From contig DJQW01000001.1 in NCBI GenBank assembly GCA_002437665.1, positions 297,492-361,491 on the forward strand: 64,000 nt of DNA. The letters are read 5' to 3'. Of this stretch, positions 10,217 to 55,491 are shown one piece after another. Under the pieces are notes generated by a model. It saw nothing but the letters and a program-made list of their open reading frames with translations. It made no database searches and was not told the origin of the DNA. This DNA is from Alphaproteobacteria bacterium UBA6376 (GTDB lineage Bacteria > Pseudomonadota > Alphaproteobacteria > Rs-D84). Position 1 is the first letter of the stretch. Every line of letters starts with the position of its first letter. A program made the translations under genes and the position numbers.

Positions 10217-10241
10217 AAAACGGGGCATCGCCCCGTTTTTT
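10216..10241. terminator. Bidirectional rho-independent terminator (acggggcatcgccccgt)
   Basis: GC hairpin flanked by an A-run and a T-run, shared by the convergent genes 7181..10216 and 10240..10680. The same hairpin recurs at 47753..47769 and 59898..59914. Confidence 0.8.
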
Positions 10242-10680
10242 ATTCGCCATAGTGGCAGGGCTGTGTATAACTAAAATCCCCCGTGCTGTCAGAACCATAG
10301 GTTACATAACATTTGGTGACAGTTGTTGCACCTGTGCCGGTGGTGCTTCCCCCCGATGGGCATCTTGTACAAGTCGGGTCTAATGAATTTGGATTTCCAT
10401 AATAACCGGAGTCACATATGTATCTATCTGACGTGTGGCACGTGACCATGTTTTTATCGGCTGCGGTGATTCCACATTCCACATCTGTTCTGAAAGTTTG
10501 CACGTGTATTACACCATTGCCCAGATCTGTTTTGTATGTTCCATCAACGCGTTTGCAACAATTTTTGGTACATTCTGTTTGGCTTGTGTTATACGGACAC
10601 GCACCACAACAGTTGTTGGCCCCATATGATGGTGCCGTGCCCAGCAATATAGATATGCTGGCTAATATTAGTTTTTTCAT
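10240..10680 (-). CDS. Secreted 13-Cys protein with furin/VSP/GCC2-GCC3-like CxxC...GYY motif
   Basis: Strong SD (AAGGAGG, 5 nt from the ATG) and a signal peptide MKKLILASISILLGTAPSYGA. Motif ICDSGYYGNPNSLDPTCTRCPSGGSTTGTGATTVTKCY. Confidence 0.6.
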   Translation of the reverse strand: MKKLILASISILLGTAPSYGANNCCGACPYNTSQTECTKNCCKRVDGTYKTDLGNGVIHVQTFRTDVECGITAADKNMVTCHTSDRYICDSGYYGNPNSLDPTCTRCPSGGSTTGTGATTVTKCYVTYGSDSTGDFSYTQPCHYGE

Positions 10681-14733: not shown

Positions 14734-15492
14734 ATGACACGATTCCGCATAACACTTGAATACGATGGCACAGATTTAATTGGCTGGCAAGAAAACCGCC
14801 AAGGCCCATCTGTGCAGTCAATTTTGCGCGATGCGATTTTTGCATTTTGCGCCGTGCGTCCTGACGTTGTCGCGGCTGGACGTACCGATGCGGGCGTGCA
14901 TGCGTTGGGTATGGTTGCGCATTTTGATTTGGACGGCACATTTGATGCAAATACCGTTATGCGTGCGGTGAATTTTTATTTGACCGATAAACCGGTGGTC
15001 ATATTGTCATGTGACGCGGTGGCGGATGATTTTAACGCGCGCTTTGATTGCACGGCGCGCCATTATCGCTATGTCGTGCTGAACCGTCGCGCCGCGCCGG
15101 TGCTGAACAAGAATCGTGTATGGTGGGTTCCGCGCGAACTGAATATTGATGCAATGCGCGCCGCGGCCACGCGTCTGATTGGACATCATGATTTTACCAG
15201 TTTTCGCGCCACCCAGTGTCAGGCAAAAAGCCCAATAAAAACATTGGACACTTGCAATATTATCACAGATGGCGATAATGTGATTTTTGAATTTTCCGCG
15301 CGTTCATTTTTGCATCATCAGGTACGCAATATGGTCGGCACATTGGTGGAAATTGGTCTGGGCAAACCATACGATATTGATGAAATTTTTGCCGCACGTA
15401 ATCGCAGTGCCGCGGGCCCAACCGCACCGGCGTCTGGTCTGTATTTTATCTCTGCGGATTATTCCACGGACGCATCGCATTCAGATATTTAA
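14734..15492 (+). CDS. truA: tRNA pseudouridine(38-40) synthase
   Basis: YDGTDLIGWQ and catalytic GRTDAGVHA motifs. Confidence 0.92.
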   Translation: MTRFRITLEYDGTDLIGWQENRQGPSVQSILRDAIFAFCAVRPDVVAAGRTDAGVHALGMVAHFDLDGTFDANTVMRAVNFYLTDKPVVILSCDAVADDFNARFDCTARHYRYVVLNRRAAPVLNKNRVWWVPRELNIDAMRAAATRLIGHHDFTSFRATQCQAKSPIKTLDTCNIITDGDNVIFEFSARSFLHHQVRNMVGTLVEIGLGKPYDIDEIFAARNRSAAGPTAPASGLYFISADYSTDASHSDI

Positions 15493-17380
15493 CCCGTCCC
15501 GATGGGTACAACATAATTCCGCCTTCGTGCAAAATTTTGTTCGCGCATTTTGGCGCATCAATATGAAAATACGACACAATATAATCAACACCGTCATCAT
15601 TGCACAGTGAAACAATATTGTTCATCAGTGGCACAAATTTCTGAATGTATACCAATGTGAATTTTTGCGCGCGATACGTGTAAACGCCGCCTGCGTGCAC
15701 ATAGCGTGGATTTGGTGTGTCTGCGTCCTCGCCATTTATTTGCTTCCACGTGTTAAATGCAAAGTAATGATTTGATGCGCGCGATTTATTGAATTTCAGT
15801 TTTCCATTTTCAACAAATCCAACCAATTCATGATCTGGCGTTGCATAGAATACGGGGCGTGGTGTGACAACAACAACTGTCGCGCCAATGATTGCAATTA
15901 TGGTTGCGGTTACGTAATTCATGCGCCGACGTACGCCGCGAATAAACATTAGCGCGCACCCAGCCACAATAAATATAATCAACGCGGCATTCGGCATATT
16001 GGGCATCGGTAAACTGGCATACGGTAAATCCGTAATTACATGCGCAATGCGCAGACCCGCATCATAAATCGTCGCCGCCAGTGCCAATGGCGCATGCCAC
16101 CCCAGCATCGCGGTAAACGTCCCCAAAATAACCAGTGGCATAATCGCAACCGAAAATATCGGCAACAGCACCAGATTGCCAACCAAACTGTACAGCGGAA
16201 ACGCCCCAAAGTGCGCAATTACAAACGGTGCGGTAAATACGGTTGCAACTATGGATGTCAGTGCCGCCGTGCATAAAACTTTCAGAATTTTATTTTCTGG
16301 CATTTTGGGCTTTATTACGCCCCAGAACCAAATCAGCCCAAATATCGCCGCGAATGATAATTGAAATCCGGCCTGCATAACATAGTGCGGATTTATTAAA
16401 ATGATAATCCACATTGCCACGCAAACGTTGCGCAGTGATATCGCGCTGCGTCCAAATACCACGGCGGCAAATATCAGCGTTGTCATCAGAAGCGCGCGCA
16501 TTGTCGCCACATCGCACCCCGACAGGAACAGATATAATATCAGCCCCATCCACGCGCAAATCGTTGCCGGCACCCGCGCGGGCACACGTCGCGTAATTGG
16601 CGCAATCAATCGAAATATGGAATAGAATAAAGCAAACAGCCACCCGCCAACCAATGTCATATGAAATCCACTGATTGACCATACGTGCCCAACGCCGGTC
16701 GATGTCCATATCGGACTGTCGTCGCGCGGAACGGCATTCTTGTACCCCAACACCAAACTGTCGACCAAGAACGAATTTGATTTATTATGAATCGCATCAC
16801 GCACAGTGTTCATATTGTGTGGCGGGTCATGCGATACAATTTCATAATCCTTGATATAGCCCGTTGCTGTCAAATGATTAAAGTATGCCCATCGGGCATA
16901 GTTAAACGCGCCATCGGCATACGGCGCATTTGGACGATACAGATTTACCACCGCGCGAACCGTGTCACCAATGTTTATCGTGCCCGCATCTGATATTGAT
17001 ACCCGTACGATGGGCGCGCCGGTGGTATCAATATACTTGCCATCGATCTGGATGCTCAGGCGGGTTTTGCTGTCGGTGTAATCTATGTTTTTAACCACGC
17101 CAATAATCGTTCGGTCGCGAATGTCACGCGTGATTTGCGGTGTTGCCAGAATGTGGGTGTACGCCGCCGCATACAGCGCGCCAAATGTAAATAACGCCGC
17201 CGCCCGTGCCACAATATGTTTGCGCAAAAACAATTCTGCGATAAATGCCGCGCACAGTGCCCCGATTACAAATTTGCTGGGTTCGGAATCCAACGAAAAA
17301 TACAACGCACAACCCATCGCCACCAAAAATGGCGTCCATAAAAATATGTTCTGGGATTGATTTTCAATAAACCGTTGCAT
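15446..17380 (-). CDS. comEC: ComEC/Rec2-family DNA internalisation channel protein
   Basis: Polytopic membrane protein with a ComEC competence-domain pattern. Start trimmed to the ATG at 17380 to avoid running into pyrG. Confidence 0.8.
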   Translation of the reverse strand: MQRFIENQSQNIFLWTPFLVAMGCALYFSLDSEPSKFVIGALCAAFIAELFLRKHIVARAAALFTFGALYAAAYTHILATPQITRDIRDRTIIGVVKNIDYTDSKTRLSIQIDGKYIDTTGAPIVRVSISDAGTINIGDTVRAVVNLYRPNAPYADGAFNYARWAYFNHLTATGYIKDYEIVSHDPPHNMNTVRDAIHNKSNSFLVDSLVLGYKNAVPRDDSPIWTSTGVGHVWSISGFHMTLVGGWLFALFYSIFRLIAPITRRVPARVPATICAWMGLILYLFLSGCDVATMRALLMTTLIFAAVVFGRSAISLRNVCVAMWIIILINPHYVMQAGFQLSFAAIFGLIWFWGVIKPKMPENKILKVLCTAALTSIVATVFTAPFVIAHFGAFPLYSLVGNLVLLPIFSVAIMPLVILGTFTAMLGWHAPLALAATIYDAGLRIAHVITDLPYASLPMPNMPNAALIIFIVAGCALMFIRGVRRRMNYVTATIIAIIGATVVVVTPRPVFYATPDHELVGFVENGKLKFNKSRASNHYFAFNTWKQINGEDADTPNPRYVHAGGVYTYRAQKFTLVYIQKFVPLMNNIVSLCNDDGVDYIVSYFHIDAPKCANKILHEGGIMLYPSGRVKYLNAMRPWNNPQR

Positions 17381-17459
17381 AACCAAATTATAGGAATTTA
17401 TTTCGTTGCGTCGCAATGATAAATTTCGTATGATAAAAGCCCATAAGGGGGCAAATCTT

Positions 17460-19031
17460 ATGGCGAAATATATATTCATCACCGGTGGTGTTGTATCCAG
17501 TTTAGGCAAGGGCGTCGCAGCGGCAGGTTGCGGCGCTCTTCTTCAATCGCGCGGGTATTCCGTGCATGCACGCAAATTTGATCCGTATCTGAATGTTGAC
17601 CCAGGGACTATGTCGCCGTTCCAGCATGGCGAAGTGTACGTCACCCACGACGGATTCGAAACAGATTTGGATTTGGGTTATTACGAACGATTCTTGGGCG
17701 TGCAACTGTCGCGCAATGATTCTGTGTCGGGTGGCCGTATTTATTGGGACGTGCTGAATGCCGAACGTCGTGGTGACTATTTGGGCGCAACGGTGCAAAT
17801 GATTCCGCACGTCAGTAATCGAATCAAAGAATACATTGCCGCCCCAACAGACACTGATTTTGTCGTATGCGAAATTGGTGGCACGGTCGGCGATATAGAG
17901 GGAAAAATATTCTTGGAATCCATTCGCCAGTTTGCAAATGATGTCGGTCGCCGCAATGTTATGTTTGTGCACCTGACACTGGCCCCGTATTTGGAACAGA
18001 GTGGTGAATTAAAAACCAAGCCAACCCAGATGTCTGTACGCCGCCTGTTGGAAAACGGGATTCAGGCGGACATGCTGATTGTGCGCACGCCGCGTATGTT
18101 GACCGCAGACGAACGCGCAAAAATCGGTATGTTCTGTAATATGCCGGCCAAAAATGTAATCAGTGGTATTGATGTTGATAATATTTACAAGATTCCATTG
18201 GCATACGATGCCCAGAATGTCTTTGACATAATTGCTGAACATTTCGGTTTGGAAAATCGTGCCGGCGATATGACGAAATTTGAACGCATATCAAATTATC
18301 TGGCGGCGGATTTGCCAACCGTGCGAATTGGCATTGTTGGTAAATATTTTGATGTGCCCGATGCATATAAATCATTGAATGCCGCATTGTTCCACGCGGG
18401 GATTCAGAATAATGTACACGTCGCATTAAAGAAAATAAATGCCGAAACATTTTCTCCATCCGATTGCGCGGACGTTGATGGCGTCCTTGTCCCTGGGGGA
18501 TTTGGTGCGCGCGGGGTTGACGGTAAAATCGCCGCCGCACATTATGCCAGAACAACGGGCACGCCATACATGGGAATCTGTCTGGGGATGCAGGTCGCGG
18601 TAATTGAATTTGCGCGCAACGTGCTGGGGATTAAAAATGCCAATTCCACAGAATTTGATGCGAATTGCACGCCCGTCATAAATATTATGCCAGACCACAC
18701 CGGCGACATGGGCGGAACATTGCGTCTGGGCGCATACCCGTGCATGATTACGCCAAATACACGCGTCGCCGAAATCTATGGCACGAATAAAATATCAGAA
18801 CGTCATCGTCACCGCTATGAAATGGACATATCGCGTGAAAAACAATTTGCCGATGCGGGTATGGTTATCTCTGGGCGCAGTCCGGACGGCCGCCTGCCTG
18901 AAATTGTGGAATTGCCAAATCATCCATTCTTTGTCGCGGGGCAATTCCATCCGGAATTTCAGTCCAGTCCATTTACCGGCCACCCAATGTTTAACGCATT
19001 CGTGGCCGCCGCCCAGAAATGTAAAAAATAA
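17460..19031 (+). CDS. pyrG: CTP synthase
   Basis: MAKYIFITGGVVSSLGKG N-terminus. GATase domain GICLGMQ...HRHRYE. Confidence 0.96.
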   Translation: MAKYIFITGGVVSSLGKGVAAAGCGALLQSRGYSVHARKFDPYLNVDPGTMSPFQHGEVYVTHDGFETDLDLGYYERFLGVQLSRNDSVSGGRIYWDVLNAERRGDYLGATVQMIPHVSNRIKEYIAAPTDTDFVVCEIGGTVGDIEGKIFLESIRQFANDVGRRNVMFVHLTLAPYLEQSGELKTKPTQMSVRRLLENGIQADMLIVRTPRMLTADERAKIGMFCNMPAKNVISGIDVDNIYKIPLAYDAQNVFDIIAEHFGLENRAGDMTKFERISNYLAADLPTVRIGIVGKYFDVPDAYKSLNAALFHAGIQNNVHVALKKINAETFSPSDCADVDGVLVPGGFGARGVDGKIAAAHYARTTGTPYMGICLGMQVAVIEFARNVLGIKNANSTEFDANCTPVINIMPDHTGDMGGTLRLGAYPCMITPNTRVAEIYGTNKISERHRHRYEMDISREKQFADAGMVISGRSPDGRLPEIVELPNHPFFVAGQFHPEFQSSPFTGHPMFNAFVAAAQKCKK

Positions 19032-21156: not shown

Positions 21157-22329
21157 ATGAGAAGAATGGCACTATCCATATTTTTCATGTGCATAATGAT
21201 GTGTGACGCATCCCATGCGGCACAGTATCGTGCGGCATTGGTTGCGAATATGGACACGGGTCAGGTTTTAATTCGTGAAAACGCGAACCAGCCGAATTAC
21301 CCCGCATCATTGACCAAGATTATGACGGTATATTTAACGTTTGATGCGCTGGAACACGGTCGTCTGCATTTGGATGATTATCTGATTGTGTCGAATTATG
21401 CGGCGGCGGCATCCCCTGTGAAATTGGGCCTGACTGCGGGCAGCAAGATTACCGTCGAAGATGCGATAAAGGCCGTAACGGTAATGAGTGCGAACGACGT
21501 CGCCCGCGTATTGGCCGAAAATTTGAAGGGCGGCAAAGAAGGTAATTTTGCCGACATGATGACGCGTGTCGCAAATGAAATCGGTCTGAAAAATACGAAT
21601 TTTGAAAACTCGTCCGGCCTGCCAAATGATGACCATATGTCAACCGCGCGCGATATTGCACTGTTGTCCATGGCGGTATATAAACATTTCCCGCAATATT
21701 GGAAATACTTTGGAATCAAGACATGGACATACAACGGCAAAACATATACAAATGGTAATCGATTGCTGGGCACATATGCGGGCTGTGATGGTATGAAAAC
21801 CGGATTTACGAATAAATCGCGCTATTCATTGGTGGCGACGGCAAATCGTGGCGGTACGCATTTGATGGCTGTCGTCTTGGGCGCAGAAAACAAGGATGTC
21901 CGTGCCGCGGTTGCAACGCAACTGTTAAACCGTGGTTTTGAAATGACCAAAAATAATTCCGCGCCGATTGAACGTACAACGCCTGTACAACCGATCGCCA
22001 CGGCGCAGCCGACATATTCTGCACCGACCGCCGCCGCACCAACATTTACGGCGGCATACAACGCGGCAACGGCAAACGCCGCCCCCACATACAACGCGCC
22101 ATCGGTCGCGCGGGGTGGGGCGGGTGTTCAGTTTGGTGCGTTTTCATCACGCGATGCCGCCGCGCAACAGGTTACAAATGTTAAAAATAAACTGGGCGTT
22201 GTTGCCACGATTGAACAGGCGTCAAACGGCATGTTCCGTGTGCGCGCAAATGGCATCACGGACGCCGCTGCAACCGAATTGCGCAATCGCGCAACAAACG
22301 CGGGCATTGACAGTTACGTATTTCATTGA
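21157..22329 (+). CDS. D-alanyl-D-alanine carboxypeptidase (S11, PBP5-like) with C-terminal SPOR domain
   Basis: Motifs SLTK (SxxK), SGL and KTG. C-terminal VQFGAFSSRDAAAQ...FRVRANGI... is a SPOR pattern. Confidence 0.85.
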   Translation: MRRMALSIFFMCIMMCDASHAAQYRAALVANMDTGQVLIRENANQPNYPASLTKIMTVYLTFDALEHGRLHLDDYLIVSNYAAAASPVKLGLTAGSKITVEDAIKAVTVMSANDVARVLAENLKGGKEGNFADMMTRVANEIGLKNTNFENSSGLPNDDHMSTARDIALLSMAVYKHFPQYWKYFGIKTWTYNGKTYTNGNRLLGTYAGCDGMKTGFTNKSRYSLVATANRGGTHLMAVVLGAENKDVRAAVATQLLNRGFEMTKNNSAPIERTTPVQPIATAQPTYSAPTAAAPTFTAAYNAATANAAPTYNAPSVARGGAGVQFGAFSSRDAAAQQVTNVKNKLGVVATIEQASNGMFRVRANGITDAAATELRNRATNAGIDSYVFH

Positions 22330-28005: not shown

Positions 28006-28368
28006 TTAAACACCGTTTAATTGCCGCAGATATTTATACAGTGCATCTGGCGTCTGAATCCGTGCACGGCGCAGGCCACATGCGCGCTTGGTAAATGCGA
28101 CACAGGTTGGCGCGCCCGCGCGTACTAAATCGGGTGGGGGCGTCGCGCCTGCCACGCATACCACCGACCAACCATGCGCACGCAGTGCGCGCAACCCGCG
28201 CGCCGTTATCGGTATTGGAATAATTTTATTTCGGTGTACAAATTGATACATGACCATTGGCGTGCCCGCGTCACCCGATGGCACAATCGGCGCACAGTGT
28301 TTGAAATGACGGCAAACAATGCGTGGCAATAATTTTGATGTTTTTGTACAAAATGCAACAATTATCAT
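28006..28368 (-). CDS. Hypothetical 120-aa protein (possible His...Cys thiol-hydrolase-like layout)
   Basis: RBS context GGGGGAAAACACAA-ATG. No signal peptide. FKHCAPIV...PTCVAFTKRACG pattern. No family recognised with confidence. Confidence 0.45.
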   Translation of the reverse strand: MIIVAFCTKTSKLLPRIVCRHFKHCAPIVPSGDAGTPMVMYQFVHRNKIIPIPITARGLRALRAHGWSVVCVAGATPPPDLVRAGAPTCVAFTKRACGLRRARIQTPDALYKYLRQLNGV

Positions 28369-28394
28369 TTGTGTTTTCCCCCGAATAAAAAAGG

Positions 28395-28751
28395 TTATTC
28401 ATGCACAATCCAACCGCGCGCAAATGCCGCCGCGTCCAGTGTTTCCATCGCCCGCCGCCACAGGTCGGCCGCACGATTTTCCGCCCAGATATATTGATGT
28501 GGCGCGCGACGACGATCGCCAAATTCTTTCATCACGCCCAGTTGTTCTGCACTCAGTTTCCCCGACAAATACAGTTTTGTAATCAGCGTTTCCACATCCA
28601 GCAATTCAGCGCAACGACGCGTTGCATGCGATGCGCCATGCATAAATCCGTTTTGCACGGATTTAGAATACAAAAACCAAAACCACATTTGTTCTGCGCT
28701 GTGAAATTTTTCAGGTGCATATTCGTATTGCGTATTTTGTTGTGCTGTCAT
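28395..28751 (-). CDS. Hypothetical 118-aa protein
   Basis: RBS AAGGGAGAAAACAA-ATG. Lies 26 nt upstream of 28006..28368, with a similar RBS context. No family recognised. Confidence 0.5.
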   Translation of the reverse strand: MTAQQNTQYEYAPEKFHSAEQMWFWFLYSKSVQNGFMHGASHATRRCAELLDVETLITKLYLSGKLSAEQLGVMKEFGDRRRAPHQYIWAENRAADLWRRAMETLDAAAFARGWIVHE

Positions 28752-28936: not shown

Positions 28937-28960
28937 ACGCGCATCATTCGTGCGCGTTTT
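28937..28960. terminator. Bidirectional hairpin terminator (acgcgca-tcattcg-tgcgcgt)
   Basis: Flanked by A7 and T5. Second terminator downstream of virB10-like. Confidence 0.6.
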
Positions 28961-29010: not shown

Positions 29011-29040
29011 TAAAAATAAACCCGCCATTCGGCGGGATTT
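29011..29040 (-). terminator. Rho-independent terminator of the virB8-10-like operon
   Basis: cccgcc-attc-ggcggg hairpin followed by a T-rich run on the minus strand, right after the stop at 29043. Confidence 0.7.
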
Positions 29041-29042
29041 TA

Positions 29043-31457
29043 TTACAAGATTGGCGGGAAACAATCACCACCCGATGATGGACAGCAATTAAACCCTTGG
29101 TCGCCCATATCGGTAAATACCTCGCCTGTGCAGCAACCATTGGCATCTGGATTCGTGCCATCTTCGCATGTGATAACGGCGGTTGCCTGTTCTTCTTCTT
29201 TCTTGACCGTTTGGAACGGATTCTGAATCGAACCATCGGCATTATATTTCAGACCCAAAACATTTTCGTTGTATGTTTTCTCGTCCATGCTGGCAATACT
29301 GTTTGTATTGTCCTTGTCCTGTTGATTTTTGTACAGCGCATCTTGCTTTGCATTATTGATGGCCTGATAATTCAGCGATTTGCAATATGCCGCAACGGTA
29401 CGATAATCATAGTCCGCCTCATACAAATCTTCTGTTTTACTCTCATTAATGTCCCACAGTCCGGTCTTGTCTTGGGTACAATAGTCCTGCAAATTAAACG
29501 AGCGTACCTGACCAATCCATGAACCATCGGTATAATCGGCAATGCCACTGTGTTTCCAATTCGCGCGCTGGTTACGCGATGCAGCATTCTCATACACCCT
29601 TTTGTTTTTGTCGGTCAAACCTGTTTCGCCCATAACCTGTTGTACAGAACATTTCTTGCTTTTGTCGCTGCCGCATGTCAGCACCAAATCGGTTGGTGGA
29701 AATACGGTAATGCGTGTACCCGCCGCAATGGAAAATGGTGGTACGGTATTGTCCATCATATCGACAATAAACTTTTGTGCGACCTGATTCCATGCGGTGA
29801 TAATTTCATTCTTGGCCAATTCAGATGAACGCACCGTCCCCGATTGAACAACCGTGTTATTGTCCAAATCAATCTGGTTCACAAATTTATCGGTGATTGG
29901 TGCAATCATATTCACCGCCGCCGGTACAACCGCCGTCAGCAATGGCATAACCATCTGTTCGATATAATCGGTGCTGCCATACCCCGGAACACCAACGCGC
30001 CCCTGTGAATCGCCCGAAAACGGACTGGTGTCGTCGCCATTGAAATTAAATTCAACACCATTTGGTAATACAAATTGATACCAGCGAATGTCCATACGGC
30101 CAACGGTTTTGTAAGGCCCCGGAATATCGCCCGTCACATACCCCAACAACAATGTTCCCGTTGGAATAATGACTGTACGTCCATCATCAGAATACACATT
30201 ACGGTCAACCGTCGCGCGCACCGGCAGGCCTTTTTCTTGGCCGTCATACAATTCTGGATCGGCGCGAACCTCTGATACGATTGTGGCTGGAATTGGTTTA
30301 TACTGGCGCAACACAAACGTGCGGTCAAACGGATCGGACGAGAATATGGCATCCTGACCACTTGTTCCAACAATCACATCGTCTTGTTTTTCTTTCAATG
30401 AAATCCCGCCGCGAAATGCATTGTGAATTGCTTCTGCACCGGTATAGTCGGGCGTAGGCATCGCGGTCGATGCATCAGACGAAATCAGTTCTTCGGTGGA
30501 CAACTGGTACGCGCGGTTTGCAACCTTTTTCACCGGATTTGACAACTGGGGCAGGTTACCCCCTGAAATCGTTGTATACCCGATGTGTTCGGCATCTGTA
30601 CCAATCTTTTTACCGTTGTTTTTGATGTCGGTAATCAGACCACTGTCGGGGTTATAGATACCCGTCGGATTGTTGCATTTTTTATCAGAAAATGGGTGGA
30701 AATAATACGCACCGTGCTCTGGACGAATCCATCCAATCTGGTTGCCGGTTGAATCATACCCCGGAAATGCAAATTCAGAACACACAACGCTGGGCGTCGG
30801 GTCGGGCTCTGCATTTGCAAACGGATCAGACGGTGCGATTGTTTCAATATCTTTTTTGATTTCGGTCTGAACCGGTTTTACAGGTTCAATTTCTGGCTCT
30901 GGTTCTGGTTTCGTTTCGACAATTTTTACAGGCTCTGGTTTCGCCACCGGTGCTGGTGCGGTCGCGCCCATAACCAAAACAATCTTGTCTGTCTTTTTCA
31001 TGCCGTCTGGCTGCGTTGCACCACGCCAATCAATAAACAGCGATGTTGTTTCCGTGTCCATTGCGGTTGTCGGCACATATTCCAATACCAATGTGCATGG
31101 AATCTGTGCATCAATATAGCCCATACCACGACACGTATCGGTTGATGTAAAACCGGCAATATCTTTGTGACGACGTACGTCCATAATTTTTACAGGTGCG
31201 GTTGCAGAAACCTTTAACGTTGTCTTTTGCTTTTCACCAACCTTGGTATTGGCCCAGTTGATGGATTCTGTCGCCGGCGTAATAATCAGGTTGATTGGCG
31301 CATCTTCGGTCTGTATATCTTTGGATTTGCCGCGCCCACCAATCAGCATGGTCATTAAAATCAGCACCACAACAAACGCCACCCCCAGCAGCAACCACTG
31401 AACCGACTTTGGCGTAGATTTGCGCATTTGTGAAATTTGTTGTTTGATACCACTCAT
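29043..31457 (-). CDS. VirB10/TrbI-family protein, enlarged (804 aa)
   Basis: N-terminal TM (aa 20-40) and a Pro/Glu-rich linker (aa 165-200). The core RATVDRNVYSDDGRTVIIPTGTLLLGYV...RMDIRWYQFVLPNGVEFNF...D..G..G parallels Agrobacterium VirB10 RDVYSDNGKVVLLEKGSKVVGEY...RIFVLWTRAKTPNGVVVNL. A 211-aa C-terminal extension follows. Confidence 0.75.
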   Translation of the reverse strand: MSGIKQQISQMRKSTPKSVQWLLLGVAFVVVLILMTMLIGGRGKSKDIQTEDAPINLIITPATESINWANTKVGEKQKTTLKVSATAPVKIMDVRRHKDIAGFTSTDTCRGMGYIDAQIPCTLVLEYVPTTAMDTETTSLFIDWRGATQPDGMKKTDKIVLVMGATAPAPVAKPEPVKIVETKPEPEPEIEPVKPVQTEIKKDIETIAPSDPFANAEPDPTPSVVCSEFAFPGYDSTGNQIGWIRPEHGAYYFHPFSDKKCNNPTGIYNPDSGLITDIKNNGKKIGTDAEHIGYTTISGGNLPQLSNPVKKVANRAYQLSTEELISSDASTAMPTPDYTGAEAIHNAFRGGISLKEKQDDVIVGTSGQDAIFSSDPFDRTFVLRQYKPIPATIVSEVRADPELYDGQEKGLPVRATVDRNVYSDDGRTVIIPTGTLLLGYVTGDIPGPYKTVGRMDIRWYQFVLPNGVEFNFNGDDTSPFSGDSQGRVGVPGYGSTDYIEQMVMPLLTAVVPAAVNMIAPITDKFVNQIDLDNNTVVQSGTVRSSELAKNEIITAWNQVAQKFIVDMMDNTVPPFSIAAGTRITVFPPTDLVLTCGSDKSKKCSVQQVMGETGLTDKNKRVYENAASRNQRANWKHSGIADYTDGSWIGQVRSFNLQDYCTQDKTGLWDINESKTEDLYEADYDYRTVAAYCKSLNYQAINNAKQDALYKNQQDKDNTNSIASMDEKTYNENVLGLKYNADGSIQNPFQTVKKEEEQATAVITCEDGTNPDANGCCTGEVFTDMGDQGFNCCPSSGGDCFPPIL

Positions 31458-31481
31458 ATTATACCGCCACCACTAGCATGA

Positions 31482-33029
31482 TTATTGAATACGAACAACA
31501 CTGCAACTGGAACCACTGAATTTCAACAACTGGTCGCATAGTTTTTGCGCCGTCTCGATATCAGACATTGGCCCAATGCGCAGACGATACAGACGTGCCG
31601 TATGCGATGTTGAACCCAAATCACCAACACCTTGTTCGTCAACCGCAAAGAATACCTTGTCCTTGTACGGGGTCAACAAACCAACGCCATCATCGCCGCT
31701 GAATTTCGCCAACAGACCCGTCCAATAATCATCCAATGCCTTGACCGATGTGTCGGATTTCAGTTCGACCGCCACGCCCGATTGGTTGCTGGTAATGAGT
31801 GGAATATTCGTCTGGGGCAGGTACGAACCCGCGGTCAAACGTTCGGTTGGCATCATTGTCACGCCCGATGTGCCCGATGACACAACCGGCATTGTAACAT
31901 TTGTTGTAACCGTGCCCGCCGGCATATAATAACCAGACGTTGCAACTGAATTAGTGTTCGAAACATATGTCGGCGAGCCAGTATAGTTCAGCCCCGCCGC
32001 ATTGATTGCATTCTGATCCATTGTGTACGCAATGGTGTTCAGTGATTGACCCGACATCATGGACTGCGCAACGTTTGCCTCTGCCAATGCCATGACGGAC
32101 GCCGTATCGGCAATCAAGAATGGCTTTTCACGCTTTTTAATGCAAACGATACGTTGACCACTGCGCAATACCATGTCGCCAACGGCCTCTACAATCAACA
32201 GACGACCATCTTCGCCATCCGTGCGGAAACTGACAGGGGATTCGCCGCCTTCGACCAGCAACGACACAACCGGACGTTGGGTCATTGCAATAACCTTGTC
32301 GCCAAAGTCAATGTATGTGAATATGCGGTCGCGCCATACGCGTTCTGGTGCAATTACGTAATCGTCAGGATTTGGAACAAAGATGTCCAAATCAAAACGA
32401 AATTCCGATGGGTCAATCTTCATAGATTTAATCCAACCGTAATCTTCGCCATCAACGCCAACGGTACTGCTGGTGGCGGCGGCCTTTTTGAAAATTGACG
32501 ATGCACCACCCGTTGTGGTGGTTGCCGCGGTTGCGTTTGGCAATGTCGCATTGCCGTCCAAAACAACGTCAACCTGTGAATACGTAATCTCGCTGGAATT
32601 TGATGGTTCACTGCGCAGATAGAAAATATACTTGTTACCAGATTTGCCCGTCACAATCAAATTAGTGTCCGAACCCTGATTGCTGGCGGTTGGGCTGATA
32701 ACCATTGTGCGGTCACCCTGATTGGCCTCAATCGTGAACAGACCCTGATTGCCAATAACGGCATCGGCAATTTGTTCGCCGTTCGGCAGGGACACCATCG
32801 TTACCATACCGTTGCGTAATTTGATTGGCAACACACTGCCTGATTCCCATGACAGTTGTGCGTACCCCGGTTTAATACTGCCCGCAGCCATATTTGCGGT
32901 TGGGTTGTCCCATGCATCTTGGACACCGTAATTGATACCAGTGGCCGCACCATGCGCAGATGCACACAATGCCATAACGCAGAAAACAGAAATGTTTAAT
33001 TTAATCGCAGTTCTAAAACTCATGCCCAT
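31482..33029 (-). CDS. VirB9/TrbG/CagX-family protein with C-terminal SPOR-like domain
   Basis: Signal peptide. N-domain is VTMVSLPNGEQIADAVIGNQGLFTI...TNLIVTGKSGNKYIFYL. C-domain is APERVWRDRIFTYIDFGD...RPVVSLLVEGGESPVSFRTDG..LIVEAVGDMVLRSGQRIVCI. The tail ...YWTGLLAKF...LYRLRIGPMSDIETAQKLCDQLLKFSGSSCSVV is SPOR-like. Confidence 0.72.
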   Translation of the reverse strand: MGMSFRTAIKLNISVFCVMALCASAHGAATGINYGVQDAWDNPTANMAAGSIKPGYAQLSWESGSVLPIKLRNGMVTMVSLPNGEQIADAVIGNQGLFTIEANQGDRTMVISPTASNQGSDTNLIVTGKSGNKYIFYLRSEPSNSSEITYSQVDVVLDGNATLPNATAATTTTGGASSIFKKAAATSSTVGVDGEDYGWIKSMKIDPSEFRFDLDIFVPNPDDYVIAPERVWRDRIFTYIDFGDKVIAMTQRPVVSLLVEGGESPVSFRTDGEDGRLLIVEAVGDMVLRSGQRIVCIKKREKPFLIADTASVMALAEANVAQSMMSGQSLNTIAYTMDQNAINAAGLNYTGSPTYVSNTNSVATSGYYMPAGTVTTNVTMPVVSSGTSGVTMMPTERLTAGSYLPQTNIPLITSNQSGVAVELKSDTSVKALDDYWTGLLAKFSGDDGVGLLTPYKDKVFFAVDEQGVGDLGSTSHTARLYRLRIGPMSDIETAQKLCDQLLKFSGSSCSVVRIQ

Positions 33030-33056
33030 GTTCCTTACCTTTCTGTGGCGCGGTGT

Positions 33057-33740
33057 TTAATTACCGCTGGCCAGATAGCCCGTATCCAGTGGATCGCCAT
33101 TACCAGATTCAACGGTGTATTCGGCAACGCGAATCCCCAACGGGTTGTCCAGACGATCCGACCATTTTAATGTCGCATTATCGTCCATCTCTAATTTCAC
33201 TATGATTGTATAATCTTTTTTATCGGTCTGTCCACCACTATCTTCACAGAAATACTTAAAATTTACAGCCCATGTTTTATAGTCCGATGTTCTGGGTTGA
33301 ACCGCACCGTTTTCAAATTCCACACTGCAACTAAATTCAAAGTCCGGCGTGTTGTTCATCAGTGCCGTCCACATGTTGGTCTGGGTAAATGCGGCATACA
33401 CCGCCGGTGTTGACCAAGTATGCACAACGCCATCTTCGGTATTATTCCATTTGCGCAGCATCACGCGCCCATCAGGCACAATTTCATTACGTGCCTTGAT
33501 ATATTCGCGAATAAACGCGCGTGTATACCATTTGAAATTGTCGTCGGTCGGTGGCAATTCAGACAGCGTGATTTCCAGATTTTCACGCGGCTGGGTCATC
33601 AAAAAGAACACCTGTGGCCGATTTAACGGAAACATTTTGTACAGGGTAATGCCCAGCACCCCCAGCACGACAATCGCGCCGGCGAACACAAACGTCATCA
33701 ATCTGGACAGCAAAATTGGCGGTTCTATGCGGTCTTGCAA
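33057..33740 (-). CDS. VirB8/TrbF-family protein
   Basis: Short N-terminus plus one TM and an NTF2-like periplasmic part (FIREYIKARNEI...; C-terminal NPLGIRVAEYTVE vs the VirB8 NPLGFQV motif). TTG start is preceded by GGAGAGGA. Confidence 0.7.
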   Translation of the reverse strand: MQDRIEPPILLSRLMTFVFAGAIVVLGVLGITLYKMFPLNRPQVFFLMTQPRENLEITLSELPPTDDNFKWYTRAFIREYIKARNEIVPDGRVMLRKWNNTEDGVVHTWSTPAVYAAFTQTNMWTALMNNTPDFEFSCSVEFENGAVQPRTSDYKTWAVNFKYFCEDSGGQTDKKDYTIIVKLEMDDNATLKWSDRLDNPLGIRVAEYTVESGNGDPLDTGYLASGN

Positions 33741-33977
33741 GTAAATCCTCTCCCTGTATATGGTCGATTGTAGACAAAAAATGGCCGGTGGTGCAAGCGA
33801 AAATTACGAAAAATCATATTTTATATGTATGGTTCTTCAGATTTTACTTGCGCCATCGCGATTAAAAACATATAATATTTCAGTTTTTCCACTTGCTTTT
33901 TCGTTCAGGTGTGCTACTCTGGCGACGACTGTCGGGGTTCGCGGGGCGTAAAAGTCAGGTGCGATTGCGACCAAAAC

Positions 33978-34051
33978 AGGGGCATAGTTCAACGGTAGAA
34001 TATCGGTCTCCAAAACCGCGGATAAGGGTTCGATTCCTTTTGCCCCTGCCA
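33978..34051 (+). tRNA. tRNA-Trp (anticodon CCA)
   Basis: AGGGGCATAGTTCAACGGTAGAATATCGGTCTCCAAAACCGCGGATAAGGGTTCGATTCCTTTTGCCCCTGCCA. Full cloverleaf checked by hand. Canonical position upstream of secE. Confidence 0.92.
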
Positions 34052-34271
34052 GAAATTCCCCAAAACATGGCTCGTCCATGTTTTTGGGAATTTGGGTTTA
34101 GTGGTGGTAAAGGGAAGCGAACCCGAATGGGTAAAATGGTGTTCGCTTACGAGTTGGATTTTGCAAGCGCAGCGCGGCGAAATCCGTACGAGTGGTGAGG
34201 CGTCAGTCCGAACATTCCTTTTGCCCCTGCCAGAAAATCCCCAAAACATGGCTTGTTCATGTTTTTGGAAA
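34033..34271. repeat. 58-bp direct repeat pair (34033..34090 and 34214..34271, offset 181 bp)
   Basis: The repeat duplicates the last 19 nt of tRNA-Trp plus its terminator hairpin, around a 123-bp insert. attccttttgcccctgccagaaa[t/a]tccccaaaacatggct[c/t]gt[c/t]catgtttttgg occurs twice. Confidence 0.9.
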
Positions 34272-34319
34272 AGTGGCGGATTTCTGGGGATTTGATGGTC
34301 AAATATAGTGGGCGAATTT

Positions 34320-34502
34320 ATGAAAAAAATTATTGATTATGTTAAATCGGTTCGCAGTGAATGGTTCAAGATTGTATGGCCATCACGCGACACTGTTATT
34401 CGTGCAACTATCATGATTCTGACGTTTTCTGCGTTGGCGGCACTGTTCTTCTTTTTGGTGGATGGTGCGCTGAATGTCATCGTGGGCTGGATTTTCAAGT
34501 AA
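34320..34502 (+). CDS. secE: Preprotein translocase subunit SecE
   Basis: MKKIIDYVKSVRSEWFKIVWPSRDTVIRATIMILTFSAL... Single TM. Position between tRNA-Trp and nusG. Confidence 0.88.
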   Translation: MKKIIDYVKSVRSEWFKIVWPSRDTVIRATIMILTFSALAALFFFLVDGALNVIVGWIFK

Positions 34503-55477: not shown

Positions 55478-55491
55478 GGGGTATATGTCTG

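What the first reader, a model, noticed from the sequence alone, without database searches (positions are those of the whole stretch)
29043..33740. Orphan VirB8-VirB9-VirB10-like module in a core housekeeping neighbourhood
Seen: three co-oriented, tightly spaced genes (27-nt and 24-nt gaps) have recognisable VirB8 (NPLGIRVAEY), VirB9 and VirB10 (RNVYSDDGRTVIIPTGTLLLGY) cores in the canonical B8-B9-B10 order. They are bounded by tRNA-Trp/secE on one side and terminators on the other. The window contains no VirB4, VirB11 or VirD4 ATPases, no VirB2/B3/B6, no relaxase and no integrase. Established: B8-B9-B10 (with B7) build the envelope-spanning core of type IV secretion systems. Split T4SS loci exist in Rickettsiales (rvh). 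Helicobacter ComB8-10 serve DNA uptake together with ComEC, and a comEC gene is present at 15446..17380. Inference: this is one of three things. It may be one locus of a scattered T4SS, a ComB-like uptake conduit, or a repurposed stand-alone trans-envelope scaffold. The domain fusions reported separately below argue that it is not a standard conjugation remnant.
Basis: partly seen in the sequence, partly recalled or inferred. Interest (0 to 1): 0.8.

Follow-up and report, generated by a model that had tools for sequence, protein, structure and literature searches.

The report
Detached VirB8-VirB9-VirB10 core operon, Enterousia
A tiny-genome gut alphaproteobacterium (Candidatus Enterousia group) keeps, next to its ribosomal-protein genes, a strongly conserved three-gene operon for the envelope-spanning core of a type IV secretion machine, with unusual added domains and none of the usual motor genes nearby; whether the motors lie elsewhere in the genome could not be checked here.

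Summary
Three co-oriented minus-strand genes hit VirB8, VirB9/CagX and VirB10/TrbI above Pfam cut-offs, separated by 27- and 24-nt gaps. A Shine-Dalgarno/TTG start opens the unit and two terminators close it.

- **Organism:** a gut Candidatus Enterousia/Rs-D84 alphaproteobacterium with a genome under 1 Mb.
- **Conservation:** the block rplA-rplK-nusG / B8-B9-B10 / yidC-lspA recurs in 80 of 80 species-level genomes. All copies are intact, B9 dN/dS is about 0.02-0.06, and base composition is native. It is not a conjugation remnant.
- **Added domains:** B9 ends in a SPOR peptidoglycan-binding domain. B10 has an ASH/Ig-like domain, a conserved middle domain and a 210-residue C-terminal extension, made of a recombining hypervariable part and an invariant cysteine-rich tail.
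- **Relatives:** B9 relatives at 33-46% identity sit in complete clusters with VirB2/3/4/6/7/11. Several are chromosomal and also carry SPOR. The detached loci form one clade.
- **Missing partners:** none was found in 1.57 Mb of Enterousia DNA, but over 90% of each genome was unreadable here.

The best reading is the core-complex locus of a split chromosomal T4SS (about 0.5). The rival is an ATPase-less stand-alone conduit or tether (about 0.3). I rate it a new variant of a known kind.

The parts
33057..33740 (-). VirB8-like gene (227 aa). It has a very short cytoplasmic N-terminus, one TM helix (about residues 12-36) and a periplasmic NTF2-like domain with the NPxG motif.
   Evidence: PF04335 E 6e-10 over residues 4-210. 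TTG start with GGGAGAGG 6 nt upstream. Intact in 80/80 related loci. dN/dS 0-0.1.
33741..33977 (-). 5' non-coding region of the operon, divergent from tRNA-Trp. It contains the Shine-Dalgarno sequence at 33754-33747 and presumably the promoter.
   Evidence: Sequence read. No conserved small ORF or VirB7-like lipoprotein here. The promoter itself was not identified with confidence.
31482..33029 (-). VirB9-like gene (515 aa): signal peptide, VirB9/CagX N- and C-domains, conserved helix, variable linker, C-terminal SPOR domain.
   Evidence: PF03524 E 1.6e-21 over residues 58-299, and PF05036 SPOR. 75-99% identical across 80 species. dN/dS 0.015-0.06.
32133..32858 (-). VirB9/CagX core of B9 (residues 58-299).
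   Evidence: TIGR02781 VirB9, E 5e-14, below the equivalog cut-off. The C-terminal half, residues 191-335, is almost invariant in 40 homologues.
31485..31787 (-). SPOR (peptidoglycan-binding) domain of B9 (about residues 415-515), with two invariant cysteines (C498, C509).
   Evidence: PF05036 25.1 bits against a cut-off of 21. Found in 23/40 Enterousia homologues at E<=1e-3. The same C-terminal domain is shared with relatives L083, L084, L086, L088, L091, L092 and L093.
29043..31457 (-). VirB10-like gene (804 aa), roughly twice the canonical length.
   Evidence: PF03743 E 5.8e-16 over residues 384-593. NF038091 VirB10 and NF038092 ComB10 both hit below cut-off. Homologues are full-length at 56-95% identity. 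Intact in 77/77 loci where the gene is complete.
31338..31397 (-). B10 inner-membrane anchor (TM helix, residues about 21-40), preceded by a conserved 20-residue cytoplasmic tail.
   Evidence: Hydrophobic stretch and invariant residues in alignment A1. Helix in the AF2 model.
30954..31295 (-). B10 periplasmic ASH/PapD-like Ig domain (residues about 55-168).
   Evidence: The only confidently modelled part of B10, pLDDT about 80. Foldseek hits to ASH/PapD-like domains at E about 1e-6. Weak choice-of-anchor-D hit.
30513..30785 (-). B10 conserved middle domain (residues about 225-315, two invariant Cys), fold unknown.
   Evidence: Near-invariant block in A1. Shared with B10 of L084, L086 and L088. 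No Pfam or PHROG match.
29679..30308 (-). VirB10/TrbI core (residues 384-593), including a hydrophobic helix-loop-helix (about 496-569) at the position of the outer-membrane antenna.
   Evidence: Almost invariant in 42 sequences. Weak PDB sequence hits to CagY and ComB10. Helices are predicted only at low confidence, so the antenna assignment is an inference.
29178..29666 (-). B10 C-terminal extension, hypervariable part (residues 598-760).
   Evidence: In close genome pairs both dN (0.1-0.96) and dS (0.7 to >4) are several-fold above the rest of the same gene, giving a mosaic, recombining pattern. No family match. AF2 confidence is low.
29046..29177 (-). B10 invariant cysteine-rich tail (residues 761-804; C764, CC775-776, CC791-792, C799; ends ...DCFPPIL).
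   Evidence: Invariant in 42-57 homologues. dN = 0 in 7 of 9 close pairs.
29021..29036 (-). Intrinsic terminator immediately after B10. A second one lies at 28938-28954.
28006..28751 (-). Two conserved genes of unknown function (orf118 at 28395-28751 and orf120 at 28006-28368), always downstream of B10. They form a separate transcription unit, and membership in the system is unproven.
   Evidence: Present in 72 and 69 of 80 loci, in the same order. dN/dS 0-0.39. No Pfam, NCBIfam or PHROG match. Absent from distant relatives.

Best explanation
The three genes form one operon. It encodes the periplasm- and outer-membrane-spanning core of a chromosomal, vertically inherited type IV secretion system in a Candidatus Enterousia/Rs-D84 gut alphaproteobacterium.

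**Proposed architecture (inferred from domain content):**
- B10 is anchored in the inner membrane by its N-terminal helix. It crosses the periplasm through an ASH/Ig domain and a conserved middle domain. Its VirB10 barrel and antenna helices form the outer-membrane pore.
- B9 builds the outer ring with B10. Its C-terminal SPOR domain pins the complex to peptidoglycan. No VirB7-like lipoprotein, which helps build the outer-membrane core in canonical systems, was found at this locus.
- B8 forms the inner-membrane-proximal periplasmic ring.
- The 210-residue extension after the B10 barrel presents a recombining, hypervariable module plus an invariant disulfide-rich tail. This is most plausibly at the cell surface, where it would meet a partner cell or ligand.

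**Proposed completion (inferred, not shown):** the motor and inner-membrane parts (VirB4, VirB6, VirB3/B2, possibly VirB11) are encoded elsewhere in the roughly 0.9 Mb genome, as in the scattered rvh system of Rickettsiales.

**Proposed function (inferred):** the organism lacks biosynthetic pathways and standard transporters but has ComEC and ComFC. The most likely job is therefore contact-dependent acquisition. One option is two-step DNA import in the manner of Helicobacter ComB. The other is exchange with a host or prey cell.
For: **Shown:**
- Pfam identity of the three proteins.
- Operon anatomy.
- Identical synteny and intact genes in 80 species.
- Strong purifying selection: B9 dN/dS 0.015-0.06 and B8 0-0.1.
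- Native GC content.
- SPOR domain above the Pfam cut-off, found in 23/40 homologues.
- B10 domain map and its hypervariable mosaic C-terminal extension.

**Supporting the split-system reading:**
- Every B9 relative at 33-46% identity whose context could be read lies in a T4SS cluster. The clusters carry VirB4 (L081, L082, L083, L093, L094), VirB11 (L081, L082, L083, L091, L094) and VirB7-like ORFs or large unannotated proteins that may be VirB6-like.
- Several of these clusters are chromosomal, abut housekeeping genes and already carry the B9-SPOR fusion (L083, L084, L091, L092, L093). So this protein family works inside full machines.
- Within the detached clade, gene linkage is already loose. 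L088 has B9-B10 with no adjacent B8. L086 has the triple next to rpsB-tsf.
- B8, an inner-membrane-complex component, is retained under selection.
- VirB4 is the only ubiquitous T4SS protein (PMC4027160).
- Scattered T4SS loci are established in Rickettsiales (PMC2653234).

**Lifestyle context:**
- Genome under 1 Mb, no standard transporters, predicted partner-dependent (PMC12306168).
- comEC is in the window and ComFC is just beyond its left end.
- ComB works in two steps with ComEC and lacks VirD4 and VirB11 (PMC12857230).
Against: - No VirB2, B3, B4, B6-like, B7, B11 or D4 homologue was found in 1.57 Mb of Enterousia DNA. That total comprises the 64 kb window, about 8 kb beyond it, and +/-10 kb in 80 species. 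The existence of the missing parts is therefore pure inference.
- B11 directly follows B10 in the nearest full systems but not here. No VirB7-like ORF is present.
- The detached arrangement appears ancient and monophyletic (Enterousia + L086 + L088). That fits a single loss event equally well.
- The published genome survey of Enterousia does not mention a T4SS. This is weak evidence, because it also does not mention these three genes.
- Surface exposure of the B10 extension, the antenna helices and the functional direction (import or export) are all inferred. The AF2 models were poor, with mean pLDDT of 46 and 60.
Confidence: 0.5

Rival explanations
1. The module is an ATPase-less, stand-alone trans-envelope assembly. 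The Enterousia/L086/L088 ancestor lost VirB4, VirB6, VirB7 and VirB11 and kept only B8-B9-B10. The module would then act in one of two ways. It could be a passive outer-membrane/periplasmic conduit, for example feeding DNA to a periplasmic ratchet and the ComEC/ComFC inner-membrane channel. Or it could be a structural tether linking inner membrane (B8 and B10 anchors), peptidoglycan (B9-SPOR) and outer membrane (B10 pore).
For: - No partner gene was found in any Enterousia DNA available.
- The operon is a closed unit with its own Shine-Dalgarno sequence and two terminators.
- B11 and B7, which flank B8-B10 in the nearest full systems, are missing.
- The detached loci form one clade.
- Extra domains (SPOR, ASH/Ig, middle domain, Cys tail) give the three proteins anchoring and contact functions of their own.
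- Strong selection acts in a genome that discards dispensable genes.
- comEC and comFC are present, and no type IV pili were reported for Rs-D84.
Against: - No T4SS-derived system without VirB4 came up in my literature searches. VirB4 is the only ubiquitous T4SS protein (PMC4027160).
- SPOR and the middle domain predate the detachment and occur in full systems. They are therefore not adaptations to a stand-alone role.
- Retention of B8, which in solved systems belongs with the VirB4/VirB6 inner-membrane complex (my recollection of the R388 structure, not checked here), is more easily explained if those partners exist.
- More than 90% of each genome was not examined.
Confidence: 0.3
2. The module is a decaying or domesticated leftover of an integrated conjugative element that inserted near tRNA-Trp.
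For: - The closest cultured-organism relatives of B9 are in conjugative VirB/D4 clusters: Microvirga (L081) and Camelimonas. Other relatives in such clusters (L082, L094) come from uncultured assemblies.
- A tRNA gene is adjacent.
- A 63-nt direct repeat of the tRNA-Trp 3' end lies nearby.
Against: - The genes are intact in 80/80 species, with B9 dN/dS of about 0.02-0.06.
- Synteny is identical across the genus and GC content is native.
- There is no integrase, relaxase or coupling protein.
- The tRNA 3'-end repeat lies on the secE side, not around the module.
- B9 is better conserved than YidC.
Confidence: 0.02
3. The module is the core of a complete effector-translocating T4SS of the rvh type, used by an intracellular or epibiotic parasite to inject proteins into a eukaryotic or bacterial host. 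It would have no role in DNA uptake.
For: - The nearest full systems look rvh-like: duplicated VirB8, giant unannotated (possibly VirB6-like) proteins of 1089-1918 aa, and chromosomal location next to housekeeping genes.
- The genome is reduced and the lifestyle is predicted to be partner-dependent.
- The hypervariable B10 module resembles antigenically variable surface parts of host-interacting T4SSs. The comparison with Helicobacter CagY and the Bartonella Trw pili is from my own knowledge and from PMC12857230.
Against: - No VirD4 coupling protein or VirB11 follows B10, as they do in Rickettsiales operons.
- No effector candidates were identified.
- No VirB8 or VirB9 duplicates were seen in the Enterousia DNA at hand.
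- This is a functional sub-case of the best explanation and cannot be separated from DNA uptake with these data.
Confidence: 0.15

Closest known systems
VirB/D4-type (MPF-T) type IV secretion systems: outer-membrane core complex VirB7/B9/B10 plus VirB8 (A. tumefaciens VirB, pKM101 Tra, R388 Trw)
   Same: All three Pfam domains are present, in the canonical B8-B9-B10 order, tightly spaced. B10 has an N-terminal TM helix, a Pro/Glu-rich linker and a C-terminal TrbI barrel. B9 has a signal peptide and a two-domain core. Relatives at 33-46% identity are ordinary members of VirB2-B11/D4 clusters.
   Different: No VirB7, VirB4, VirB6, VirB11, VirD4 or relaxase was found within the DNA available. B9 carries a SPOR domain. 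B10 has an ASH/Ig domain, a middle domain and a 210-residue extension after the barrel, whereas in relatives the TrbI domain is C-terminal (L091). The sequences are very divergent from solved structures, with best PDB E-values of 1e-4 to 2e-3. The module is core-genome and vertically inherited rather than mobile.
Chromosomal B9-SPOR T4SS clusters of uncultured Alphaproteobacteria (loci L083, L084, L091, L092, L093; undescribed in the literature searched)
   Same: They share the B9-SPOR fusion and the B10 middle domain (L084). They are chromosomal and lie next to housekeeping genes such as lspA and rplS-trmD. They are the closest sister group in the B9 tree.
   Different: Those loci keep VirB2-B3-B4 (L093), VirB4 (L083), VirB11 (L083, L091), a VirB7-like small ORF and a second VirB8 (L083, L091, L092). 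They also have giant B10s (2274-2653 aa) whose extensions lie N-terminal of the barrel. Enterousia has none of these at the locus.
Rickettsiales vir homolog (rvh) T4SS
   Same: An alphaproteobacterium with a reduced genome and chromosomal, vertically inherited T4SS genes placed among housekeeping genes and split from the rest of the system (PMC2653234).
   Different: In rvh, B8-B9-B10 is followed by B11-D4, and B4/B6/B8/B9 are duplicated. Here B10 is followed by terminators, and no duplicates were seen. No rvh sequences were compared directly, because no tool gave access to them.
Helicobacter pylori ComB DNA-uptake T4SS (ComB2-4, ComB6-10, working with ComEC)
   Same: A B8-B9-B10 block without VirD4, VirB11 or VirB5. 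comEC is present in the same genome. B10 hits NF038092 ComB10 (E 1e-12) and PDB ComB10 2bhv. The two-step import logic is described in PMC12857230.
   Different: The ComB10 score of 47.8 bits is far below the equivalog cut-off of 300 and lower than the generic VirB10 score. No ComB4/6/7 was found locally. The relationship is by analogy, not specific descent, because the nearest relatives are alphaproteobacterial VirB systems.
SPOR-domain proteins (FtsN, DamX, DedD, RlpA)
   Same: The C-terminal roughly 100 residues of B9 match PF05036 above the cut-off. The domain carries two invariant cysteines. The same genome also fuses SPOR to a DacA-type carboxypeptidase.
   Different: Here SPOR is fused to a secretion-system ring protein rather than to a divisome or cell-wall protein. 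Binding to denuded glycan strands was not tested.

Membership tests
Type IV secretion system (any class) | A VirB4-family ATPase, the only ubiquitous T4SS protein (PMC4027160) | not testable with these tools
   Absent from the window, from about 8 kb beyond its left end and from +/-10 kb in 80 related genomes. tblastn with five VirB4 sequences that are 43-46% identical to one another found no hit. The remaining >90% of the genome could not be read. The one metagenome scan failed with an internal error.
Type IV secretion system, VirB/D4 (MPF-T) architecture | VirB8 domain protein (PF04335) | tested here: met
   39.7 bits against a cut-off of 23.2, residues 4-210.
Type IV secretion system, VirB/D4 (MPF-T) architecture | VirB9 domain protein (PF03524) with a signal peptide | tested here: met
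   77.5 bits against a cut-off of 34.2. 40/40 homologues match. NCBIfam VirB9 equivalog scores 52.5 against 217.7, so it is not an equivalog-level match.
Type IV secretion system, VirB/D4 (MPF-T) architecture | VirB10 domain protein (PF03743) with an N-terminal TM anchor and a proline-rich linker | tested here: met
   59.3 bits against a cut-off of 35. The TM helix and Pro/Glu-rich region are visible in A1. NCBIfam VirB10 scores 57.3 against 220, below cut-off.
Type IV secretion system, VirB/D4 (MPF-T) architecture | VirB7 lipoprotein partner of VirB9 in the outer-membrane core complex | tested here: not met
   No ORF fits in the 27- and 24-nt gaps or upstream of B8. The 54-62-aa B7-like ORFs of L081, L083, L084, L091, L092 and L094 have no tblastn hit in 1.57 Mb of Enterousia DNA. 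Such small, fast-evolving proteins could be missed or encoded elsewhere.
Conjugative element (plasmid/ICE) | Relaxase, type IV coupling protein (VirD4), integrase or att sites, patchy distribution, foreign composition | tested here: not met
   None of these genes is in the window. Synteny is identical in 80 species. GC is 0.47-0.49, like the flanks.
Rickettsiales rvh T4SS | B8-B9-B10-B11-D4 operon plus duplicated B4/B6/B8/B9 at other loci | tested here: not met
   B10 is followed by two terminators and two unrelated small genes. No B11 or D4 hit. Duplicates elsewhere in the genome could not be tested.
Helicobacter ComB competence T4SS | ComB10/ComB9/ComB8 equivalogs together with ComB4 and ComB6, acting with ComEC | tested here: inconclusive
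   ComB10 model scores 47.8 bits against a cut-off of 300. comEC is present and ComFC lies nearby. ComB4 and ComB6 were not found locally. Function was not tested.
SPOR domain family (PF05036) | Match to the SPOR profile above the gathering score | tested here: met
   25.1 bits against a cut-off of 21, although only profile positions 37-76 aligned. 23/40 homologues match at E<=1e-3, best 8.8e-7. No structure model was made of this domain.

The most novel reading that the evidence does not exclude
Enterousia and its sister lineages (L086, L088) may have discarded VirB4 and all other T4SS parts. They would then run B8-B9(SPOR)-B10 as an autonomous, ATPase-less trans-envelope device: a peptidoglycan-pinned outer-membrane channel with a variable surface module. 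This device would feed DNA or other macromolecules to ComEC/ComFC, or would double as an envelope tether. It would be the first T4SS-derived machine that works without the family's only universal component.
Probability: 0.27. Interest if true: 0.85.

Novelty: new variant of a known kind. Interest (0 to 1): 0.55.

Why it matters
Enterousia and the wider Rs-D84 order are widespread, uncultured gut bacteria. Their genomes are under 1 Mb, they have no respiratory chain, few biosynthetic pathways and no recognisable nutrient transporters. How they feed is an open question (PMC12306168).

A three-gene envelope-spanning T4SS core is one of their best-conserved non-housekeeping features. It is better conserved than YidC. 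It is therefore a concrete candidate for the organelle that connects them to a partner cell or to environmental DNA.

For T4SS biology, the locus offers three things:
- A VirB9-SPOR fusion, which suggests a way to pin the core complex to peptidoglycan at a locus where no VirB7 was found. It was not found in the literature searched.
- A VirB10 with a recombining post-barrel module.
- A natural test of whether the B8-B10 core can exist apart from VirB4.

One HMM scan of an available circular genome would settle the last point.

Tried and rejected
**Searches that failed or could not reach the target:**
- Whole-genome search for VirB4. A viral-contig scan with the same alignment found nothing.
- Walking along long contigs with the look-up of encoding contigs extended the view only about 8 kb to the left. 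The right-end protein was not on record.

**Structure prediction:**
- AlphaFold2 of full-length B10 gave mean pLDDT 46. Only the ASH/Ig domain is usable.
- AlphaFold2 of the C-terminal extension gave pLDDT 60 and is not interpretable. No fold search was run on it.
- Foldseek on the B10 model identified only the generic ASH/PapD-like Ig fold.

**Family searches with no result:**
- Pfam at E<=10, and PHROGs, gave nothing on the B10 middle domain, the B10 C-terminal extension, orf118 or orf120. Pfam also gave nothing on the B10 Ig region.

**Literature:**
- No paper links Rs-D84 or Enterousia to type IV secretion, or VirB9 to SPOR.
- The 2023 Enterousia genome paper is not held.
- The 2025 paper has no supplements held as text.

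**Ideas considered and rejected:**
- A conjugative-element remnant at tRNA-Trp. The genes are intact, conserved and natively composed, and the att-like repeat lies on the other side of the tRNA.
- B9 as a lipoprotein. There is no proper lipobox.
- Homology between the B10 Cys-rich tail and the small Cys-rich secreted protein at 10240-10680. BLASTP E = 1.4, not significant.

Full report
**1. Observation.**

The window has three co-oriented minus-strand ORFs at 33740..33057 (227 aa), 33029..31482 (515 aa) and 31457..29043 (804 aa), with gaps of 27 and 24 nt. Each passes the Pfam gathering threshold:
- PF04335 VirB8: 39.7 bits against a cut-off of 23.2.
- PF03524 CagX/VirB9: 77.5 bits against 34.2.
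- PF03743 TrbI/VirB10: 59.3 bits against 35.

NCBIfam models for VirB8, VirB9, VirB10 and ComB10 also hit, but far below their equivalog cut-offs. These are therefore divergent members. PDB sequence searches agree, giving only weak matches:
- CagY at E 1e-4 and ComB10 at 1e-3.
- TrwF at 2e-3.
- Bartonella VirB8 at 0.03.

The first gene starts with TTG, six bases after a GGGAGAGG Shine-Dalgarno sequence. The last gene is followed within six bases by a GC hairpin plus T-run, and then by a second terminator. The three genes thus look like one self-contained operon, divergent from tRNA-Trp (33978-34051) and secE (34308-34502).

All larger ORFs of the window are housekeeping genes:
- gyrA, TolC/AcrB, rmuC, comEC, pyrG, pyk and a DacA-SPOR fusion.
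- recR, ksgA, kefB, lspA, yidC, nusG and rplKAJL.
- rpoBC, plsX, mraZ, an M13 peptidase, a Pom-type porin and an MltB-like transglycosylase.

No T4SS ATPase, pilin, VirB3, VirB6, relaxase or integrase domain is present.

**2. Whose genome it is.**

A scan of one genome per GTDB species with the B9 protein returned 210 relatives. The best 80 are 75-99% identical. They come from gut MAGs labelled Candidatus Enterousia, uncultured Alphaproteobacteria or 'uncultured Rickettsiales' (UMGS860, 99%). One is a circular 958,618-bp chromosome.

The one genome study of this group places Enterousia in order Rs-D84 (PMC12306168). It reports:
- Genomes of 0.75-1.0 Mb.
- No respiratory chain and incomplete glycolysis.
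- No amino-acid, nucleotide or lipid biosynthesis.
- No standard transporters.
- A predicted obligate symbiont or parasite lifestyle.

The study does not mention type IV secretion.

**3. A core, vertically inherited module.**

In all 80 loci the order is rplA-rplK-nusG / B8-B9-B10 / (orf118-orf120) / yidC-lspA.
- B8 and B9 are intact in 80/80 loci. B10 is intact in all 77 loci where it is not cut by a contig end.
- B9 is 75-99% identical across species, against 58-93% for YidC and 71-100% for NusG.
- In close genome pairs, Nei-Gojobori dN/dS is 0.015-0.06 for B9, 0-0.1 for B8 and 0.03-0.34 for B10.
- GC content (0.47-0.49) equals that of the flanks.

This excludes a pseudogenised or recently acquired conjugative remnant.

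**4. Protein anatomy.**

*B8.* It has an unusually short cytoplasmic N-terminus, one TM helix and the periplasmic VirB8 domain.

*B9.* It has these parts, in order:
- A signal peptide.
- The two-domain VirB9 core, with residues 191-335 nearly invariant.
- A variable Ser/Thr/Gly-rich linker.
- A conserved C-terminal domain of about 100 residues that matches SPOR (PF05036).

The SPOR match scores 25.1 bits against a cut-off of 21 and is found in 23/40 homologues, best E 8.8e-7. The domain has two invariant cysteines.

*B10 (alignment A1).* It has these parts:
- A conserved 20-residue cytoplasmic tail and a TM helix.
- A domain at residues about 55-168, modelled with pLDDT about 80. It is an ASH/PapD-like Ig fold by Foldseek, E about 1e-6.
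- A Pro/Glu-rich variable linker.
- A near-invariant middle domain (225-315) with no family match.
- A second variable linker.
- The almost invariant VirB10 core (373-597). It includes a hydrophobic helix-loop-helix (about 496-569) where the outer-membrane antenna is expected. This assignment is an inference, because the model confidence there is low.
- A 210-residue extension after the barrel.

*The B10 extension.* It has two parts. In close genome pairs, residues 598-760 show dN of 0.1-0.96 together with dS of 0.7 to more than 4. That is several-fold above the rest of the same gene. In the pair L033/L040, for example, dS is 0.034 in the middle domain and 4.3 in residues 656-715. This is the signature of a mosaic, recombining cassette.

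The last 44 residues (CEDG..GCC..NCC..DCFPPIL) are invariant, with dN = 0 in 7 of 9 pairs. A hypervariable exchangeable module on an invariant disulfide-rich stalk suggests exposure to an outside partner. That topology is inferred. AlphaFold2 gave no usable model of this region.

**5. Relatives and their contexts.**

A profile-free scan of 1.84 billion representative proteins found only 481 relatives of B9 at E<=1e-3. This is a small, distinct subfamily. I read the genomic contexts of eleven relatives:

| Locus | B9 protein | Gene content around B9 |
|---|---|---|
| L081 (Microvirga yunnanensis), L082, L094 | P0284, P0406, P0260 | Complete VirB2-B3-B4-...-B8-B9-B10-B11-D4 clusters with helicase or relaxase-like genes, so conjugative elements. 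B9 has no SPOR. |
| L093 | P0255 | B2-B3-B4-(four unknown genes)-B8-B9(SPOR)-B10 |
| L083 | P0250 | B4-...-1109 aa-B8-B7-B8-B9(SPOR)-B10 (2653 aa)-B11 |
| L091 | P0253 | B8-B7-B8-B9(SPOR)-B10 (2274 aa)-B11, then rplS-trmD-rimM |
| L092 | P0257 | 1918 aa-B8-B7-B8-B9(SPOR)-B10 |
| L084 | P0248 | 1089 aa-B7-...-B8-B9(SPOR)-283 aa-B10, then lspA and housekeeping genes |
| L086 and L087 (closest outgroup) | P0243 | rpsB-tsf-B8-B9(SPOR)-B10-135 aa |
| L088 | P0244 | hpf / B9(SPOR)-B10, with no adjacent B8 |

A neighbour-joining tree of the B9 core puts Enterousia, L086 and L088 in one clade. Its sister group is dominated by the SPOR-bearing chromosomal clusters and also includes L094. L084 and the conjugative clusters L081 and L082 lie further out (a rough tree without support values).

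Three conclusions follow:
- The SPOR fusion arose in a chromosomal T4SS lineage and functions within complete machines.
- That lineage is embedded among housekeeping genes, which resembles rvh of Rickettsiales (PMC2653234).
- Detachment of B8-B9-B10 from B4, B6, B7 and B11 happened once, in the ancestor of Enterousia, L086 and L088.

**6. The unresolved point.**

I ran tblastn with 44 T4SS proteins from these relatives against all Enterousia DNA in hand, 1.57 Mb in total. The query set included five VirB4s that are 43-46% identical to each other. Only B8 and B10 were hit.

This DNA covers the same roughly 20-70 kb region in many genomes, not whole genomes. I could not scan a complete genome, because the relevant scans were exhausted or failed. 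'Orphan' is therefore established locally, at 30 kb or more on either side, but not genome-wide.

**7. Interpretation.**

I commit to the split-system reading at about 0.5. On this reading the operon encodes the core complex of a chromosomal T4SS whose motor and inner-membrane parts lie elsewhere. The reasons are:
- VirB4 is universal in T4SSs (PMC4027160).
- All relatives outside the detached clade (Enterousia, L086, L088) sit within T4SS gene clusters.
- B8 is retained.
- Linkage within the detached clade is already loose (L088).
- Scattered T4SS loci are typical of reduced alphaproteobacterial genomes.

Mechanistically, B10 would span the envelope from inner-membrane anchor to outer-membrane pore. 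B9 would ring it and, through SPOR, fix it to peptidoglycan. No VirB7-like lipoprotein, which helps build the outer-membrane core in canonical systems, was found here. B8 would form the inner periplasmic ring. The variable B10 tip would contact a partner.

The organism has ComEC and ComFC. The genome study reports type IV pili only for another lineage (UBA9783), not for Rs-D84, and finds no nucleotide biosynthesis. ComB-like two-step DNA import (PMC12857230) is therefore an attractive function. Contact-dependent exchange with, or secretion into, a host cell is about equally plausible.

The main rival, at about 0.3, is a truly ATPase-less stand-alone conduit or tether. That would be without precedent.

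**8. Novelty and score.**

The genes are already auto-annotated in public MAGs as 'TrbG/VirB9 family'. Their family membership is therefore not new. Three things appear undescribed:
- The genus-wide, core-genome, detached B8-B9-B10 operon.
- The VirB9-SPOR fusion and the chromosomal clade it marks.
- The VirB10 post-barrel hypervariable module.

I rate it a new variant of a known kind, with interest 0.55. One inexpensive whole-genome HMM scan could raise that sharply or lower it.

Noticed in passing
window 34033-34095 and 34214-34276: A 63-nt direct repeat (90% identical, 181 nt apart). It comprises the last 19 nt of tRNA-Trp plus a downstream hairpin, and lies between tRNA-Trp and secE. It looks like an att-type scar or a duplicated terminator. 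It is on the secE side and does not bracket the VirB module.
   Followed up: partly
window 29178-29666 (B10 residues 598-760): In otherwise near-identical genome pairs this segment has both dN and dS several-fold above the rest of the gene, giving a recombining, mosaic cassette. The following 44-residue Cys-rich tail is invariant.
   Followed up: partly
window 28006-28751 (-): Two small genes of unknown function (118 and 120 aa) always follow the operon in Enterousia (72 and 69 of 80 loci). They have no match in Pfam, NCBIfam or PHROGs and are absent from distant relatives. They have their own Shine-Dalgarno sequence and lie behind two terminators.
   Followed up: partly
window 21157-22329 (+): A D-Ala-D-Ala carboxypeptidase (Peptidase_S11) with a C-terminal SPOR domain. 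This is a second SPOR fusion in the same 64 kb, which suggests this lineage uses SPOR as a general peptidoglycan anchor.
   Followed up: no
window 10240-10680 (-): A small secreted cysteine-rich protein (146 aa) with an Ephrin_rec_like hit at E 3e-5. Its N-terminal 'NNCC...NCC' pattern resembles the B10 tail 'NGCC...NCC', but the similarity is not significant (BLASTP E 1.4).
   Followed up: partly
L019 15073-17328 (-) and 17460-18026 (+): In the circular MAG, a 751-aa Thr/Ser-rich, cysteine-rich secreted protein and a 188-aa protein that may be an outer-membrane barrel (my reading of the sequence, not tested) are inserted between orf120 and yidC. Several other Enterousia loci have 1-3 kb insertions at the same spot.
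   Followed up: no
L089 1473-2207 (about 8 kb left of the window start) and window 15446-17509: A ComFC-like gene (DZR_2 + Pribosyltran) lies near comEC. Inner-membrane DNA-uptake genes are thus retained in a genome under 1 Mb.
   Followed up: no
L083 11608-19569 and L091 4115-10939: Giant VirB10 homologues (2653 and 2274 aa) with the TrbI domain at the extreme C-terminus, in chromosomal B9-SPOR T4SS clusters of unidentified Alphaproteobacteria. These clusters also have duplicated VirB8.
   Followed up: no
window 54005-56730 (+): A Protochlamydia-type outer-membrane porin (PF17251 Pom) lies next to an MltB-like lytic transglycosylase (SLT_2). It is unusual to see this porin family in an alphaproteobacterium.
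   Followed up: no
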